Origin: Malacoraja senta
Lineage: Eukaryota
Direction of reading: 5' to 3'
NCBI GenBank assembly: GCA_038087875.1
Contig: CM075987.1
Coordinates: forward strand, 23,934,001 to 23,998,000
DNA length: 64,000 nucleotides
The position numbers and the translations under genes are program-made. Below the pieces are notes generated by a model. That model had not been told where the DNA came from and did not search any database. It was given only the letters and a program-made list of their open reading frames with translations. Of this stretch, positions 3,791 to 36,860 are shown in pieces. How positions within the stretch are numbered: the first letter of the stretch is position 1; each line of letters opens with the position of its first letter.

Positions 3791-5544
3791 GGACCCATCA
3801 TCATCGCCTGTCCATTCCCTTCACAGATATTGCCTGACCCGCTGAGTTCCTCCAAAACCAATTGTTTTTCTCAAGGTCTCAGCATCTCAGCAACTCCTTG
3901 TATCTTCATTAGGGCTAATGTTTGACTTTCTACCCGAAAAGTAAGTTCTTCGGAACAAAGGACCTGGGTAGTTTCTACACCAAGGAGCCAGAACGTGGGC
4001 CAATTTTATGCCCGGTCGAGAAATCGATCCTGTAAGTAGTGAAAGCCTTCAAGTCCGCAGTCAGAACATATTTGGTGATGTCTTAGATTAATCTGTTTAA
4101 ATATTCACTCTGATCCGAGGACAGCTTCAGACATTAGAGAGGATGAAATTAATAATGTCAAGTAGCTGATCTGGAGTTACGTTTCAGACACTAGAACATG
4201 ACTAATGATTTGACCAGTAACAAGATCCATCTATTAGTGTGGTTCAAAGCCTATTTGATCCAACTGACAGCAAGCCAGCACAAATCTCAGTCGTTAAAGT
4301 ATTCCACATAGATCTGATATCAGAACATTGTGTCCTTGTATGCTATATTCCGTGGACATTCCAGTAACTGGTAATGAGTTGTTTTATTAGGTTGACTAAC
4401 CCTTTAAATGAGCAAACACTTCAACCTATCCAAACTGAAAAATAAATCCTGGGAATCAATGCTTGTAAAACTAACTAAACTCAATCTGCTTTTCTGAATT
4501 CGTACAAAATAGCCCCACAGCCGTTTGGGTCGTAGATTACTTTTGATAATTATATAACTTCATAAGCGACAGGAGCAGAATTAGGCCATTCGGCCCATCA
4601 TGTCTACGGACAATAAAACACTCCTGACTCTTGCGGTCCAATGGCCTCAATGGATCAGAATAAGTAAGATTTGATTTTAGTGATTTTTGATTTGACTTCG
4701 TGATTTTTGAAATGTAATTATTATACAAAGCTTGTCATCAAATTGCTCCGTTATTTTATTTTCCCTACTTCATTGTGCAGTAAATAATGGTGATTCCAAA
4801 GGGAACAATCTGCACTTATGTATTTAAGTGGATACAAATTTGCGACTTAACCACGTGTGTTGTAAAAAGACACGGAAGACCTCAACTTACCAGCAAGTAT
4901 TGGACACGATTGTGTAGACAATCAGACTCAGGATGAGGGATCGGCCACGTACATAAGAGGGTTGTGATGCTCTAGAATTCTCCTCTCCTGAAATCTCTGA
5001 ATGCTCGGTTTGTTCATAAGTTCTAGGAGCTGAATGAGGCCATTCGGCCCATCAGATCCAATCTGCCATCCAATCATGGCGGATCTGCCTTTCCCTCACA
5101 ACTCCATGTTTTATTGTCATATGTTCCCAGAATGGGAACAATAAAATTCTTACTTGCGAACCTTGAAAACCTTGAAACAACAGGCAGGTAAACATAGTAC
5201 TCTGTAAAACCTGTAATAACCATCAAGAAAAGGTCAGTATATATATGTGAAAACAGACAAATAAATAAACAACAATAGTATATGTGACTGATGGGCTACA
5301 TTGCCGAGAACTATATTCTGCACTCTATACAGTATCTTCTCTGTTGCTCTATCCATTGTACTTGAGTTTGAACTGATTGCATCCATGTGTGGTATCTCTG
5401 ATCTGTTTGGAAGGGCAGGCAAGAAAAGCTTACACTCTACTTCGGTGGTACATGTGACAACCATAAAATTAAAAGTAAATCTAAATGGTTTTTGTATCAA
5501 TATTTCAACATCATTTATGTGGTTTAAGTAGTGATTTAAAATTT

Positions 5545-6640
5545 AGAGTCATAGGGTCATAAAGTGATACAGCGTGGAAACAGGACCTTTGGTCCAACTT
5601 GCCCACACCAGCCAACATGTCCCATGGGGGCCCCCGGTGGGGGTCCCCCTACGCAGGGATTCTCCCTCTCTACATTGGGGACCTGGGGTGGAGGAGGGTA
5701 TTGCACCGAAATGTTCCCTGCAACCAGTTTCTCTCGCGGTTCACAGACTCGCCAGCCGCCTGCCACTTTGGCGGGCTGGAAGAGTCTGTGTACCACGTGT
5801 ACATGGAGTGCGTGAGGCTGCAGCCACTGTGTAAATACCTAAAGGGGCTGCTCCTTGCCTTCTGGCTGCATTTTTCACTCACCACCCTCACCTTTGGACA
5901 CCCTGTGCATAGGGGAGAGGGTAGGGCTGAAGATGTCCTGGTTGGGTTGCTCCTGGGCCTGGCCAAGCTGGCCATCCGCGAGTCACGGCGCCAGGCGGAG
6001 GAAGGCTCTACCCGAGCCGGCTGCCTGCCCCTTTTCCGGGGTTACGTCCGTGCCCGGGTGGGGTTAGAAAGGGAATATGCCCTGTCCACGGGCACCCTGG
6101 GGGAGTTCCGGGACCGCTGGGCTCTGCAGGGTGTTGAATGCATCCTTGACAAGGAGTGTAAGATAGCTGTATAGAGGTTTATTAAGGATATCTGTTTGTA
6201 TTGTATTATGGTGGTGGGCTCTGGTTTGTTCTATTGTAGTGTAATATTAAATTAAAAAAAAAAATTTGAATAAATTATTTGAAACCCCCCCCCCAAAAAA
6301 AACATGTCCCATCTACACTAGTCCCACCTGCCGTGTTTGGCCCATATCCCTCCAAACCTATCCTGTCCATGTACTTGTCTAACTGTTTCCTAAACGTTGT
6401 GATAGTCCCTGCCTCGACTACCTCCTCTGGCAGCTCGTTCCACACCCGCACCACCCTTTGTGTGAAAAAGTTACCCCTCAAATTCCTATTTAACCTTTTC
6501 CCCTTCACCTTGAACCGATGTCCTCTTGTCCTCGATTCACATACTCTTGGCAAGAGACTCTGTGCTTCTATCCGATCTGTTCCTCTCGTGATTTAACACC
6601 CCTCCATAAGATCAACCCTCATCCTCCTGCGCTCCAATAT
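5545..6640 (-). mobile_element. CR1/HER1 LINE 3' fragment interrupted by a Tx1-clade insertion
   Basis: SRTRGHRFKVKG..NFFTQRVVRVWNELP C-terminal peptide (ORF 6275-6553); 3'UTR split at 5626-6300. Confidence 0.88.
5626..6300 (+). mobile_element. 5'-truncated Tx1/L1-clade LINE (ORF2 C-terminus, 3'UTR, A-rich tail)
   Basis: Peptide GDLGWRRVLH..CHFGGLEESVYHVYMECVRLQPL resembles the zf-RVT/CCHC C-terminus of Tx1 ORF2; stop at 6174, AATAAA, A-rich tail; 12-bp TSD AACATGTCCCAT at 5614-5625 and 6301-6312. Confidence 0.88.
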
Positions 6641-7392
6641 TTCTTGGAATATTTCTAGTCTGTTGCATTTTAATACATTTTAAATGCCATTCAGAGACAT
6701 TCAAGTCATTCGCTTTTCTGATATAAAGCTGGAGGCGGGTGTTCCGCTGGCTATCAAAATCTTTGAAAGTCATGGGGAACTACATCACACATCTCACTGC
6801 TAGGATCTGGGACATTTCAAAACAGCAGGAACGCAAGTGGAGACATAAGCTTGGACGCGGAACTGTTACGGGGCAGCAATCAACACTGCAGCAACCTCAG
6901 TAAATATTAGAACCTGATGGGATCCGACAGAAATGTCCATTAACTTTTAGAACTAGTTAATCATAATCACTGAAATAACCAGATATCATCAGTTAATTTC
7001 CCTCAAAGGCCCTGCTTGACCAAAATCAGTTCCAAAATACCAGCAGAACAGGAAAAGCTGTGGAAGTGAACATTTTCACGAGGGCTCAGAGCAAGACGAG
7101 GCATTTAAATGATGTCGGGATTAACTCTGGGTCTGGTTTTGCACGGCTGTGCACAAGATTAACGGTGCCATGCGCGAGAGCTCAGGGGTGTCAATTTCAA
7201 GGAGATGTGCGCGGCAAGGTTTTACACACAGAGGGTGGTGGGGGCCTGGAACGCATTGCCAGGGGTGGTAGTGGAGGTAGGTACAAGAGTGGCGTTAAAG
7301 AGGCATTTGGATGTGCAGGGAATAGAGGGATTTGGATGACCAACAGGCAGATGAATTCTGCCCAACACCATCATGTTCGACACAAACATTCA

Positions 7393-7815
7393 GTTTAGTT
7401 TATGTCACGTGTACCGAGGTACAGTGAAAAACTTTTGTTGCGTGCTAACCTGTCAGCGGAAAGACAATACATTATTACAATCCAGCCATTTACAGGGTAC
7501 AGATACATGAGAAGGGAATAACGTTTAGTGCAAGGTAAAGCCAGTAAAGTCCGATCAAGGATAGTCTGAGGGTCACCAATGAGGTAGATAGTAATTCAGG
7601 ACTGCTCTCTGGTTGTGGTAGGATGGTTCAGTTGCCTGGTAATGGTTGGGAAGAAACTGTCGCTGAATCTGGAGGTGTGCGTTTTCATACTTCTGTACCT
7701 TTTTCCCGATGGGAGAGGGGAGAAGAGGAGGTGGCCACGGTTGCGACTCGTCCTTGATTATGCTGCTGGCCTTGCCGAGGCAGCGTGAGGTATAAATGGA
7801 GTCAATGGAAGGGAG
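7393..7815 (-). mobile_element. Rex1/Babar-type LINE 3' fragment
   Basis: Minus-strand SIYTSRCLGKASSIIKDES..P.LF.PLP.GK peptide and the shared 3'UTR (GCTGACAGGTTAGCACGCAACAAAAG..GTGACA). Confidence 0.8.
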
Positions 7816-7816
7816 G

Positions 7817-8036
7817 TGGACAAAAATGGTGGAGAAACTCAGCGGGTGAGGCAGCATCTATGGAGCGAAGGAAATAGGCAACGTTTCGGGTCGAGGCCCT
7901 TCTTCAGACTGATGTGAGGGTGGGGGGGGGGGGGCAGGAAGAAGAAAGGAAGAGGTGGAGACAGTGGGCTGAGGGAGAGGTGAGACGGGGAGGAGAAAGT
8001 AGGGACTACCTGAAATTAGAGAAGTCAATGTTCATA
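7817..8036 (-). mobile_element. Penelope-like element 3' part
   Basis: MNIDFSNFR* ORF end on minus strand followed by hammerhead-containing terminal repeat at 7877-7910. Confidence 0.8.
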
Positions 8037-8981
8037 GGTTGGTTTGTGTGATGGTCTGGGCTGCGTCCACAATTCGCTGCGATTTCTTGCAAGCATTGTG
8101 GGCCAAAGTGCCCTTTCCTGTAGTCTTCTATGTTCTATGTTCTACTTTCATGGTCTGTCTCACCCATCTCATGGGCACAGCTCTATCAGGTAGCACTGAA
8201 AAATGTACTCAGCAAATAAAATGGAAATGATGGGGAAGATTGCAGTTCTGTAAAAGAACACTTGCAGTCAATTGGCATTTGAGGAGAGCTGCTGTCTGTG
8301 CAAATTGAGGTTGGCAAAAGTATGTTGAAATGCAGAAATCATGTGGCAGCTTCCTTAACCCTGTCTGCACTATTGTAGCCCAAGAGAGCCAATACTCAAG
8401 AGTGTTTAATTGCTATATGCACTGGCAATGGAGCCATTAAATTCTTACTTGTAGCAGTGTAAAGAGCTGGAAACACGATACATGCATAATTGCATATAGT
8501 AATTAAAAATGTAATAACACTAATAGTAGATAGCCATAATAGCGCAAATATCTAAATCCGCAGTGCAATCAAAGACACAGTCCATAGAAGTTCATCATTG
8601 CTGAGGTTAGTGTCGTGTGGAGTTCAAGGACCTGCTGGATGTTGGGGAGAGACTATTCTTGAACCTAGTGGTCATGTTTTTCAGGCTTCTGCGCCATTTT
8701 CCTGAAGAGTGTGCCCAGGATGGTGTGGATCTTTGATGATATTGGCTGCCTTTCTGAGGCAGCGCCTCCTATAGATCCCTTCGATGGTGGGGAGGCCAGT
8801 ACCTGTGTCTCCAAAGTCTACCACTCGCTGTCATCTCCATCATTCCTGGGCATTTGCAGTTGCCGAACCACGCAGTCACATTCAACACTGTGTCAGAAAG
8901 TTGTTGAAAACCACAATATTTTACACTCCCGCATTTTTAAAGCATTAAAAATGTTCAGCGTTGGTGAAAGAGAGGTAACTT

Positions 8982-9410
8982 ATACTCGCTAGAATTTAGG
9001 AGATTGAGAGGGGATCTTATAGAAACGTACAAAATTCTTATGGGGTTGGACAGGCTAGATGCAGGAAGATTGTTCCCGATGTTGGGGAAGTCCAGGACAA
9101 GGGGTCACAGCTTAAGGATAAGGGGGAAATCCTTTAAGACCGAGATAAGGAAAAACTTTTTCACACAGAGAGTGGTGAATCTCTGGAACTCTATGCCACA
9201 GAGGGTAGTTGACGCCAGTTCATTGGCTATATTTAAGAGGGAGTTAGATGTGGCCCTTGTGGCTAAAGGGATCAGGGGGTATGGAGAGAAGGCAGGTACG
9301 GGATACTGAGTTGGATGATCAGCCATGATCATATTGAATGGCGGTGCAGGCTCGAAGGGCCGAATGGCCTACTCCTGCACCTATTTTCTATGTATCTATG
9401 TATCTATGTA
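8982..9410 (+). mobile_element. Young CR1/HER1 LINE 3' fragment
   Basis: ORF 9004-9309 nearly identical to the C-terminus of ORF 20865-21881; (TATCTATG)n tail. Confidence 0.92.
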
Positions 9411-9539
9411 ACTGAGTTTTTTAACAGCAAATTTGAAACTGGCAAACAATCCGAAAAATATATTTTATATATGAGGATTATCCTACCTTCAGTATTGCAC
9501 TTAAAATGTAATGGATTTAAAAGTAGAATATCTTTTATT

Positions 9540-9830
9540 TGTGGCGTCAGCTGATGGTCAGACCACTTATGGTCGAACCCTCGTCAGTGGTTACGAGGGC
9601 TGGCACGTGACGTCATGGGTTAAGGGGAGTGTCCTGCTACATACGCATATCTCACCTTGAGATCAGGAGTCGACAGGTAGCTGAGCTCGAGACAACACCC
9701 TCACTCAGCAGCAGCAGCAATAACTCAGTATGTTAGTGGACCAAACTTGCATGTACACCAACCATGTAATGTCTGAATAAAGCAACCATTTGTTCACCAC
9801 CTTTGGTACCGCTATGTATTATTATTTTCA
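9540..9830 (+). mobile_element. Possible short solo LTR (Gypsy-like)
   Basis: Starts TGTGG, CpG-containing island in AT-rich DNA, CACGTGACGTCA, AATAAA near 9776; 3' CA end and TSD are unclear. Confidence 0.4.
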
Positions 9831-9864
9831 GTTGAAGCACAGAGCAAAGAAGGTTGAACAAAGA

Positions 9865-10108
9865 GTGGCACGGTGGCGCAGCGGTAGAGTTGCAGCCTTA
9901 CAGTGCCAGGGACCCATTGTTCGATCCTGACTACGGGTGCTGTCTGTATGGAGTTTGTATGTTCTCCCTGTGACCTGCGTGTGTTTAAAATATCCCTAAT
10001 GTGTAGGATAGCACTAGTGTACGGGGTGATCGCTGGTTGGTGTGGACTCAGTGCGCCAAAGGGCCTGTTTCCACGCTGTGTCTTTACAGACTAAAGTAAA
10101 GTCTAAAG
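9865..10108 (+). mobile_element. HE1-type V-SINE (internally deleted)
   Basis: GGCACGGTGGCGCAGCGGTAGAG head and CR1-like tail. Confidence 0.85.
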
Positions 10109-12209: not shown

Positions 12210-12717
12210 ACGAGATTTACGGAGATGTTGCCAGGACTAGAGGGTGTGAGCTATAGGGAGAGGTTGAGTAGGCTGGGTCTCTATTCCTTGGAGCGCAGGA
12301 GGATGAGGGATGATCTTATAGAGGTGTACAAAATCATGAGGGGAATAGATTGGGTAGATGCACAGAGTCTCTTGCCCAGAGTAGGGGAATCAAGAACCAG
12401 AGGACATAGGTTCAAGGTGAAGGGGAAAAAATTTAATAGGAATCTGAGGGGTAACTTTTTCACACAAAGGGTGGCGGTTGTATGGAACAAGCTGCCAGAT
12501 AAGGTAGTTGAGGCTGGGACTATCCCAACGTTTAAGAAATAGTTGGACAGGTACATGGATAGGGACAGGTTTGGAGAGATATGGATCAAGCGCAGGTAGG
12601 TGGGACTAGTGTAGATGGGACATGTTTTTTTTTGTTTTTTTTCCAAAGATTAATTCAATTGTTGGCAAGTTGGGCCGAAGGGCCTGTTTCCACACTGTAT
12701 CACGCTATGACTCTATA
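12210..12717 (+). mobile_element. CR1/HER1 LINE 3' fragment
   Basis: RFTEMLPGLEGVSYRERLSRLGLYSLERRR..TRGHRFK peptide; short foreign poly-T insert at 12627-12660. Confidence 0.9.
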
Positions 12718-12894
12718 ACTTGGGTACAATTTGCATCTTATGAGGCATAGGAACGCTGGGTCAGTTTGAGCTTTGTGTGACAATGAATGAGCCTTGTCGA
12801 AGTGACCGCCCATTATTGACACTTCATCCAATTTCCTCTTCCATTGTTTAGTTTAGTTTAGTTTATTGTCACGTGTAGTGAGGTACAGTGAAAG

Positions 12895-36611: not shown

Positions 36612-36860
36612 TAGGAATTTTATAGGTAACTTTTTCACGCAAAGGGCGGTGGGTGTATGGAACGAGCTGCCAGAGGAGGTAGTTGGGGCAGGGACTATCG
36701 CAACATTTAAGAAGCATTTAGGTACATGGATAGGACGGACTTAGAGGGATATGGGCCAAACGCAGGCAAGTGGGACTGGTGTAGCTGGGACATGTTGGTC
36801 GGTGTGGGCAAGTTGAGCCTAAGGGCCTGTTTCCGCACTGTATGACTCTATGGCTCCATA
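36612..36860 (+). mobile_element. CR1/HER1 3' fragment
   Basis: NFFTQRAVGVWNELPEEVV peptide; uninterrupted GGGACATGTTGGTCGG site. Confidence 0.85.

What the first reader, a model, noticed from the sequence alone, without database searches (positions are those of the whole stretch)
5614..6312. Tx1-clade LINE that may target one fixed site in another LINE's 3'UTR
Seen: a Tx1-like ORF2 C-terminus with an A-rich tail is inserted antisense into a CR1 3'UTR, with a 12-bp TSD AACATGTCCCAT. A second, separate CR1 copy (12627-12660) carries a short insert at the same nucleotide (after GGGACATGTT) in the same relative orientation. Its reverse complement TTGAATTAATCTTTGG(A)n resembles this element's tail TTGAATAAATTATTTG(A)n. 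Other copies of that 3'UTR (near 36790, 39900, 49720, 55780, 56470, 58460) are empty. Known: Tx1-clade elements are often sequence-specific (Tx1 in Xenopus DNA transposons, Keno in U2 snRNA genes, Dewa in tRNA-gene spacers, Kibi/Koshi in microsatellites). Inference: a site-specific family using the abundant CR1/HER1 3'UTR as a safe harbour. I do not know of a description of this target.
Basis: partly seen in the sequence, partly recalled or inferred. Interest (0 to 1): 0.8.

Follow-up and report, generated by a model that had tools for sequence, protein, structure and literature searches.

The report
LINE copy outside its family's target
A broken-off copy of a jumping gene sits in the tail of another repeat through ordinary insertion; its family does favour one fixed site, but that site lies in the reverse-transcriptase gene of a different repeat.

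Summary
Window 5626-6300 is a 5'-truncated L1/Tx1-type LINE copy (ORF2 C-terminus, 3'UTR, A-tail) flanked by a perfect 12-bp duplication, antisense in a CR1-like 3'UTR. A second CR1-like copy carries a roughly 33-nt A-tailed insert at the same nucleotide. None of the 29 closest relatives lies at that site, and none of 100 listed family 3' junctions has the canonical flank. The site 21-mer occurs 41,697 times, and I found at least five inserts with family-like tails there, so it is at most a weak secondary hotspot. The family does have a preferred target. 24 of 100 listed 3' junctions, and 8 of 29 relatives, abut AAGCTGGTTACC in the reverse-transcriptase coding region of a different, Rex1-like LINE. 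These inserts lie in sense orientation with a 12-13-bp duplication. At least nine different 5'-truncation points at that site show independent insertions. 24 of 100 listed copies of one host subfamily are occupied. Both sites share CC|AA at the nick and a 12-bp stagger. Tx1-clade families that target other transposons are known; I found no description of a LINE target. Clade placement is not proven, because no RT of this family could be fetched.

The parts
5614..5625 (+). left copy of the 12-bp target-site duplication AACATGTCCCAT
   Evidence: exact 12/12 repeat of 6301-6312
5626..6175 (+). 5'-truncated ORF2 C-terminus of an L1/Tx1-type LINE (182 codons plus stop), with a zinc-binding C..C..H..C motif
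   Evidence: open frame; 31% identity (E 2e-22) to residues 1114-1283 of a 1298-aa fish ORF2. That ORF2's cluster includes a protein that NCBI names transposon TX1 149 kDa protein; 89-93% identity to the 40 best genome copies.
6176..6300 (+). 3'UTR and tail: ...TTGAATAAATTATTTGAAA, then a (C)11 run, then the terminal A-run
   Evidence: The 3'UTR aligns with the relatives up to about query position 620-659. This copy's tail differs from the commonest family tail.
6301..6312 (+). right copy of the target-site duplication
5546..5613 (-). 3' end of the interrupted CR1-like copy (3'UTR downstream of the insertion site); limits approximate
   Evidence: matches the canonical tail ...ACAGGCCCTTCGGCCCAACTTGCCCACACCGGCC|AACATG
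6313..6640 (-). remainder of the interrupted CR1-like copy (start of the 3'UTR and the ORF2 C-terminus, antisense); right limit approximate
   Evidence: 91-94% identity to 39 other genome copies over 6301-6420. ORF2 ends ...GRWD* 17 nt before the nick.
12627..12663 (-). second, very short A-tailed insert at the same nucleotide in an independent CR1-like copy: about 19-23 nt resembling the family tail plus A9CA9; 12660-12663 may be a 4-bp duplication
   Evidence: The CR1 flanks differ from those of the first copy. No exact tail family was found.
12300..12720 (+). the second CR1-like copy (ORF2 C-terminus and 3'UTR); limits approximate

Best explanation
The 675-bp insert is an ordinary dead, 5'-truncated copy of a poly(A)-tailed LINE of the L1/Tx1 group. 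It was made by target-primed reverse transcription. The element's endonuclease nicked the bottom strand of a CR1-like 3'UTR at 5'-...CATGTT^GG-3'. The A-tail primed on the TT, reverse transcription stopped early, and the second strand was cut 12 bp away, which produced the AACATGTCCCAT duplication.

This is an off-target event for the lineage. The lineage's preferred target is one nucleotide in the RT-coding region of a different, Rex1-like LINE. On the top strand the site reads ...ATCATCCCCTCC|AAGCTGGTTACC(A)|AGCTCACGG, which encodes ..IIPSKLVTKL... There, several subfamilies have inserted again and again, in sense orientation, with a 12-13-bp duplication.

The CR1 site resembles that target at the nick (CC|AA on the top strand, TT^GG on the bottom) and in the 12-bp stagger. 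Combined with tens of thousands of CR1 tails, that resemblance makes it a weak secondary hotspot, which is why the window shows two hits at one nucleotide.

Shown: the anatomy of both window inserts, the flank statistics, and independent insertions at the Rex1-like site. Inferred: that the endonuclease is what reads the site, that the short second insert comes from the same lineage, and the Tx1-clade label.
For: Anatomy of the window copy.

Ordinary off-target behaviour. 13 of 30 loci have credible, unrelated duplications of 8-16 bp. The 3' flanks of the 29 nearest relatives are heterogeneous.

Preferred target.
- 8 of 29 relatives touch the Rex1-like site: L002, L003, L007, L008, L010, L016, L024, L030.
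- Of 328 genome matches to the family tail, 100 were listed. 17 run straight into GCTGGTTACCAAGCTCACGG... A further 7 have GCTGGTTAC(CA) followed by the element's own interior or by another unit, which indicates tandem copies separated by the duplication (my count).
- Of 686 matches to the host 21-mer, 100 were listed. 24 have a LINE tail plus A-run directly upstream, from at least three tail subfamilies, and one has the 12-bp duplication with no insert.
- The pattern TTTGA, 2-32 nt, GCTGGTTACCAAGCT gave 130 matches against 0 for the reversed control. 82 of the 84 distinct places listed are tail plus A/T-run.

Independent events. The 5' junctions ...CCTCCAAGCTGGTTACC(A)|element occur at 1160, 653, 643, 1381 and 1346 bp from the 3' end, and at four further interior points. 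L010 has the full 13-bp duplication on both sides, and L024 shows it at both junctions.

The CR1 site is rare for the family. 41,697 copies of the site 21-mer exist, and 0 of 100 listed carry a family tail. Of the 30 loci read from the 137 A-run matches, 7 are true A-tailed inserts. Five of those have tails of this lineage or resembling it: L061, L062, L064, L070, L078. The control CC|AA site in the same tail gave 15 matches and 0 family tails.

Nick resemblance. 4 of the 13 off-target duplications are preceded by CC and start with AA.

Group membership. The C-terminus is homologous to fish ORF2 proteins with Exo_endo_phos + RVT_1 + zf-RVT. Two of their clusters are named transposon TX1 149 kDa protein by their sources. 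By the rule in Kojima 2015 (PMC4494074, passages read), a share above 20% of flanks makes a family target-specific.
Against: About three quarters of the listed copies are not at the Rex1-like site, so this is a preference and not strict specificity.

Read from the 5' side, only 4 of 100 listed host sites are occupied, against 24 of 100 from the 3' side. The absolute numbers agree, but the difference between host subfamilies is not explained.

Some 3' junctions could be chimeras co-amplified by the host LINE. L002 has no host sequence on its 5' side, and I found no duplication that settles the question.

Every pattern count rests on the first 100 rows listed, which are mostly contig 1. My patterns also required a non-G letter at one end, and I classified the rows by eye.

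No RT or endonuclease of this family was retrieved, so the Tx1-clade label rests on the C-terminal domain and on names given by other annotators. zf-RVT scores 26 bits in the relative P0002, below Pfam's 27.5 cutoff, and Pfam finds nothing in the window's own fragment.

The short second insert has only about 19-23 informative bases.
Confidence: 0.8

Rival explanations
1. One reading: the family is sequence-specific for this one nucleotide of the CR1-like 3'UTR and uses that abundant tail as its safe harbour.
For: There are two inserts at the same nucleotide in one window. Three more inserts with tails of this lineage lie at the same nucleotide elsewhere: L064, L070, L078. A control CC|AA site in the same tail has none.
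Against: None of the 29 nearest relatives lies there. None of 100 listed family junctions has the canonical flank, although 2 rows have diverged look-alikes by eye. None of 100 listed sites is occupied by a family tail, although the site 21-mer occurs 41,697 times. By contrast 24 of 100 listed Rex1-like sites are occupied. Per site, the preference is lower by a factor of a few hundred to a thousand (my rough arithmetic).
Confidence: 0.03
2. The CR1 coincidence is pure chance: insertion outside the Rex1-like site is random, and two hits at one nucleotide were noticed only because they lie in one window.
For: CR1 tails are extremely abundant, and this window holds 9 of them. Poly(A)-primed insertion needs T's at the nick, which leaves few usable positions in this G+C-rich tail. 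The finding was selected after the fact.
Against: At least 5 inserts with family-like tails lie at this one nucleotide, where roughly 0.1 would be expected. That expectation is my arithmetic: about 55,600 sites in 2 x 1.94 Gb and 5,000-10,000 copies, the copy number being a guess guided by the 4,516 first-look candidates. The control site has 0. 4 of 13 off-target duplications share CC|AA.
Confidence: 0.12
3. The recurrent Rex1-like flank is not a target. One copy landed in a Rex1-like master element, and the chimera was then copied many times by the Rex1-like machinery or by segmental duplication.
For: L002 lacks host sequence on its 5' side. Several junctions share the tail GATTT(A)8-9. Some pairs are plain duplicates: C9:12860483/12994716 and C1:166986698/167030495, and L007/L008. 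3'-side occupancy exceeds 5'-side occupancy.
Against: There are nine different truncation points, each with host sequence and the duplication on the 5' side. At least three tail subfamilies and very varied A-runs occur at the site. Tandem copies are separated by exactly the duplicated 12-mer. One host copy has the duplication but no insert.
Confidence: 0.05

Closest known systems
Tx1-Mar families of crocodilians, and Tx1-9_AMi, Tx1-8_Crp and Tx1-4_AMi (Kojima 2015, PMC4494074; passages read)
   Same: These are APE-type, poly(A)-associated LINEs of the Tx1 clade that insert preferentially at particular positions of another transposon family. The preference is partial and is judged by the share of flanks (>20%). 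Several related families share one target.
   Different: Their targets are Mariner or Harbinger DNA transposons or LTR retrotransposons. Here the target is the RT-coding region of another non-LTR retrotransposon, always entered in sense orientation. Clade membership of the present family is not shown by RT phylogeny.
Tx1L of Xenopus laevis in the Tx1D piggyBac-type DNA transposon; Keno (U2 snRNA genes); Kibi and Koshi (microsatellites); as summarised in PMC4494074
   Same: The specificity is attributed to the element's endonuclease.
   Different: Those families have different targets. Most are described there as specific, whereas three quarters of the listed copies here lie elsewhere.
Human LINE-1 (ORF2p structures 8sxt and 8uw3)
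   Same: The ORF2 plan of the relatives is the same (endonuclease, RT, C-terminal cysteine-rich region). So are the A-tail, 5' truncation and duplications of about 8-16 bp. Relative P0154 matches L1 ORF2p at E 7e-76 over endonuclease plus RT.
   Different: L1 nicks loosely at TTTT/AA (recalled) and has no fixed target. The C-terminal region of this family finds no L1 chain even at E <= 1.

Membership tests
Tx1 clade of non-LTR retrotransposons | The RT domain groups with Tx1-clade references in a phylogeny (RTclass1-type test) | not tested
   No RT of this family was in hand. The longest copies held are about 1.35 kb of 3' end.
Tx1 clade of non-LTR retrotransposons | ORF2 with APE-type endonuclease, RT and a C-terminal zinc-binding region | tested here: inconclusive
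   Only the C-terminal part is present. Pfam finds nothing in P0001. zf-RVT scores 26 bits in relative P0002, below the 27.5 cutoff. The full-length relatives P0154 and P0058 have Exo_endo_phos + RVT_1 + zf-RVT. P0001 aligns to the last 170 residues of P0154.
Tx1 clade of non-LTR retrotransposons | The nearest named relatives are Tx1-type rather than L1-type | tested here: met
   Of the 10 longest hits examined, 2 clusters are named transposon TX1 uncharacterized 149 kDa protein by their sources. Those names are automatic. The C-terminal region finds no human L1 chain.
Target-specific LINE (rule of Kojima 2015: one kind of sequence in >20% of flanks) | A recurrent flank at one position, produced by independent insertions | tested here: met
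   24 of 100 listed 3' junctions and 8 of 29 nearest relatives are at the site. Nine distinct truncation points carry the same duplication.
   0 of 29 relatives, 0 of 100 canonical flanks, and 0 of 100 listed sites occupied by a family tail.
Rex1/Babar LINE (identity of the targeted element) | RT motifs at the two standard Rex1 primer sites, and a 3' end made of short tandem repeats | tested here: inconclusive
   The host ORF reads YSSAFNT and QRLYFLR. The published primers RTX1-F1 and RTX1-R3 (PMC4635592, passage read) encode FSSAFNT and SRLFLLR. The primers do not match at nucleotide level. The host ends in ACTCTTG-like repeats; that such a tail is typical of Rex1 is recalled. No phylogeny was made.
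CR1-clade LINE (identity of the interrupted repeat) | RT phylogeny or curated library match | not tested
Only the C-terminus ...FTQRVV..GLEGYGPNxGRWD* and the tail were read.

The most novel reading that the evidence does not exclude
A long-lived lineage of Tx1-like LINEs, with at least three tail subfamilies, specialises in one nucleotide of the reverse-transcriptase gene of another LINE (Rex1-like). It always enters in sense orientation, which would let it ride on the host element's transcription much as R2 does in rRNA genes, while knocking out the host copy. This would be a LINE that parasitises a LINE, a target class not listed among the Tx1 targets I could read. The CR1-tail hits would then be leakage of the same endonuclease onto a look-alike nick site.
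Probability: 0.35. Interest if true: 0.6.

Novelty: new member of a known kind. Interest (0 to 1): 0.42.

Why it matters
The window feature itself is an ordinary dead LINE copy, so it matters little. Following it up showed a clear, measurable target preference of a LINE for the coding region of another LINE. About a quarter of the listed copies of one host subfamily are hit at exactly one base.

Tx1-clade elements are the main animal examples of APE-type endonucleases that read long sequences. Each new target, together with its look-alike off-targets, gives material for working out how such an endonuclease recognises DNA.

The result also bears on repeat annotation. Chimeric Tx1-like/Rex1-like junctions will recur in this genome and could be mistaken for a composite family.

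Tried and rejected
- Fetching full-length copies to obtain RT and endonuclease.
- L004/L005 looked like long copies, but their upstream part is an LTR-retrotransposon pol.
- Word-based protein searches. P0001 against longer proteins gave one 355-aa hit. P0002 against longer proteins gave none. The ORF1-like P0155 gave none.
- tblastn of full-length fish relatives against the window and all loci found only generic RT similarity to the host LINE, plus the C-terminal part already known.
- The Rex1 primers do not match the host LINE at nucleotide level.
- Looking for a duplication that would prove L002 to be a co-amplified chimera found nothing.
- The pattern TTTGA..ACATGYCCCAKCTAC was confounded, because many CR1 tails themselves contain TTTGACCC. 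Only 2 of the 100 listed rows are real tails.
- A subfamily with the exact tail of the short second insert does not exist.
- The earlier-findings index held nothing for this genome.
- Literature searches for a Tx1 family with a LINE target found none. They cover only the open-access library. Repbase Reports, and the figure and supplements of PMC4494074, were not seen.

Full report
What is in the window

Positions 5614-5625 and 6301-6312 are identical 12-mers, AACATGTCCCAT. Between them, 5626-6175 is a single open frame of 182 codons ending in a stop. It contains a cysteine/histidine motif (...AACHFGGLEESVYHVYMEC...). About 105 nt of untranslated sequence follow, then a tail that ends ...TTGAATAAATTATTTGAAA, a run of eleven C, and eight A.

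The flanks, read on the other strand, form one continuous 3' end of a very abundant CR1-like repeat. In 14 of 18 evaluable tails (29 loci examined) the ORF2 of that repeat ends ...GLEGYGPNxGRWD* exactly 17 nt before the insertion point.

A second, unrelated copy of the same repeat, with different neighbouring sequence and a different subfamily signature, carries T9GT9CCAAAGATTAATTCAAT at 12627-12659. This lies directly after the same ...GGGACATGTT and in the same relative orientation. Next to it are either a 4-bp duplication or four more bases of insert, and about 10 nt of the repeat are missing. The window holds nine such tails, two filled and seven empty.

Is the CR1 tail the family's target?

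The whole 1.94-Gb genome could be searched. The 675-bp insert has thousands of relatives: 4,516 first-look candidates, of which the 40 scored are 89-93% identical. I read both flanks of the 30 best loci.

None of the 29 other copies lies in the CR1 tail site. Their 3' flanks are mostly unrelated to each other. 13 of the 30 loci have credible duplications of 8-16 bp of unrelated sequence.

An exhaustive pattern search for the commonest family tail gave 328 matches. None of the 100 listed has the canonical ACATGTCCCATC flank. Two rows have diverged look-alikes by eye, and one lands about 16 nt further along a CR1 tail.

Seen from the other side, the 21-mer at the site occurs 41,697 times at <=1 mismatch, and none of the 100 listed copies carries a family tail.

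An A-run joined to the site occurs exactly twice in the genome, and both are the window's sites. At <=3 mismatches there are 137 matches. I read the 30 best. Seven are true A-tailed inserts, and most of the rest are ordinary variants of the repeat. Of the seven:
- L064 has the same family's 3'UTR.
- L070 and L078 have the tail of a related subfamily (...TTATTTTTGATAC).
- L061 and L062 are the window's two.

A control site in the same tail that also reads CC|AA (CCC|AACTTG) gave 15 matches and no family tail.

My rough arithmetic goes as follows. There are about 55,600 sites on two strands of 1.94 Gb. The copy number is a guess of 5,000-10,000. That gives an expectation of about 0.1 family inserts at this nucleotide, against at least five seen. 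The site is therefore not the family's target, but it looks like a weak hotspot.

The real preferred target

The same flank reading showed a different recurrent sequence. After the A-tail, 6 of the 29 relatives continue with GCTGGTTACC.... Five have ...AATACCATCATCCCCTCCAAGCTGGTTACC(A) directly before their truncated 5' end. Together, 8 of the 29 touch this site.

The sequence is the RT-coding region of another LINE, read in sense...YSSAFNTIIPSKLVT|KLTELGLCASLCNWILDFL...GAPQGCVLSPLLYSLYTHDC...FADDTTVVG....

Of the 100 listed family tails:
- 17 run into this host sequence.
- 7 more have GCTGGTTAC(CA) followed by the element's own interior or by another unit. This is what tandem insertions into a regenerated target look like (my count; two pairs are segmental duplicates).

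The host 21-mer GCTGGTTACCAAGCTCACGGA occurs 686 times at <=1 mismatch. Of the 100 listed, 24 have a LINE tail and A-run directly upstream, from at least three tail subfamilies. One has the 12-mer AAGCTGGTTACC duplicated with nothing in between.

The pattern TTTGA, a gap of 2-32 nt, then GCTGGTTACCAAGCT gave 130 matches against 0 for the reversed control. The 100 listed rows cover 84 distinct places, and 82 of those are tail plus A/T-run. About 21 of them are of the TTTGATAC type that also occurs at the CR1 site.

The insertions are independent. The 5' junctions lie 1160, 653, 643, 1381 and 1346 bp from the 3' end, and four more junctions sit at other interior points. L010 shows the 13-bp duplication on both sides, and L024 shows it at both junctions.

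By the rule used for Tx1 families in Kojima 2015 (one kind of sequence in more than 20% of flanks; PMC4494074, passages read), this family counts as target-specific.

Caveats on the target

About three quarters of the copies lie elsewhere. From the 5' side only 4 of 100 listed host sites are occupied, out of 3,603 matches. The absolute numbers agree with the 3'-side count (about 0.04 x 3,603 against 0.24 x 686). This suggests that the abundant host subfamily reading ..AAGCTCTCAGATC is mostly empty. I could not tell whether that reflects timing or recognition.

Some junctions may be chimeras copied by the host element or by duplication (L002; L007/L008; the C9 and C1 pairs), and one search did not settle L002. 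All counts come from the first 100 rows listed (mostly contig 1), from patterns that required a non-G letter at one end, and from my reading by eye.

How the two sites relate

At the Rex1-like site the top strand reads CCTCC|AAGCTGGTTACC(A)|AGC. At the CR1 site it reads CAGCC|AACATGTCCCAT|CTA. Both have CC before and AA after the first nick (TT^GG on the nicked strand), TG at positions +5 and +6, and a 12-bp stagger. Four of the 13 credible off-target duplications are also preceded by CC and start with AA; by my rough binomial estimate, about one would be expected.

I therefore read the CR1 site as a look-alike of the nick site that is hit rarely per copy. It shows up only because the repeat is so abundant.

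The short second insert matches the commonest family tail at 15 of 19 positions without gaps (17 of 23 with the four bases on its left; by eye). It is closest to one tail seen at the host site...TTGAATTAATGTTTTTGAA. No subfamily has its exact tail. I put it at about 70% that it belongs to the lineage.

Why both exact hits lie 6.3 kb apart in one window is not explained. The window is rich in CR1 tails (nine, where about two would be expected), but that is not enough to account for it.

What the elements are

The window's C-terminal fragment aligns with the last 170 residues of a 1298-aa fish ORF2 (31% identity, E 2e-22). That protein has Exo_endo_phos, RVT_1 and zf-RVT domains and matches human L1 ORF2p over endonuclease and RT (E 7e-76).

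An exhaustive HMMER search with the 355-aa relative P0002 found 380 proteins at E <= 0.001. I looked up names for the 10 longest of the 150 listed. Two clusters carry the source name transposon TX1 uncharacterized 149 kDa protein, and the others have generic names or none. The C-terminal region finds no L1 chain in the PDB even at E <= 1. This supports the L1/Tx1 group and leans towards Tx1.

The defining test, an RT phylogeny, could not be run.

Downstream of L016, directly after the duplicated target, begins a long unit with a leader and a 242-aa ORF ending in a CCHC knuckle. This is probably the 5' part of a full-length element in tandem.

The host LINE carries YSSAFNT and QRLYFLR where the standard Rex1 primers encode FSSAFNT and SRLFLLR (PMC4635592, passage read). 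It ends in short ACTCTTG-like repeats. I call it Rex1-like on that basis only. It is not the CR1-like repeat of the window, because its C-terminus and tail differ.

Comparison with what is known, and verdict

Tx1-clade families with preferences for other transposons are on record: piggyBac-type Tx1D, Mariner-N4_AMi, Harbinger elements and groups of LTR retrotransposons, besides snRNA and 5S genes and microsatellites (PMC4494074, passages read; PMC4640811, passages read). In those passages, and in four full-text searches, I found no family whose target is another LINE. Repbase Reports, and the figure and supplements that list all targets, were not seen, so I do not claim that it is not in print.

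The verdict is as follows. The feature at 5614-6312 is a real but ordinary off-target LINE copy. The lineage is a new member of the known kind 'Tx1-like LINE with a transposon target', with an unusual target (the coding region of another LINE) and a measurable secondary site in the CR1-like tail.

Noticed in passing
G000:C1:223248926-223248981 (row; no locus): One host copy has the 12-mer AAGCTGGTTACC duplicated in tandem with no insert. It looks like a target-site duplication left without an element (aborted or lost insertion).
   Followed up: no
L016:24-749 (- strand) and the 730 nt before it: Directly after a truncated copy, its A-tail and GCTGGCTAC, a long unit begins with a leader and a 242-aa ORF (P0155) ending in a CCHC zinc knuckle (PF00098, 22.7 bits). 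It is probably ORF1 of a full-length element in tandem at the same target. Word search found no homologues.
   Followed up: partly
window 6285-6295; L018 tail: A run of eleven C sits between the element's tail and its final eight A. Another copy has CACCCC inside its A-run. The origin is unknown; tailing of the RNA is one possibility.
   Followed up: no
L004 and L005 (G000:C7 near 21.85 and 22.00 Mb): Near-identical copies with identical flanks in opposite orientation, i.e. an inverted segmental duplication. The copy sits in the pol region (RNase H/integrase-like translation) of an LTR retrotransposon.
   Followed up: partly
L007/L008 (G000:C1027:100529-107277): Two copies with the same truncation point lie 3 kb apart. 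One follows another family tail plus AAGCAGGTTACGA, so this is a tandem array at the host site.
   Followed up: partly
   Followed up: yes
rows: The Rex1-like host has two abundant subfamilies just downstream of the target (..AAGCTCACGGAACTGGG and ..AAGCTCTCAGATCTGGG). The second dominates the empty sites listed from the 5' side.
   Followed up: partly
window 12599-12663 and 6295-6328: The only two exact genome matches of A8+CATGTCCCATCTACAC lie 6.3 kb apart in this window, in independent CR1-like copies. This clustering is not explained.
   Followed up: partly
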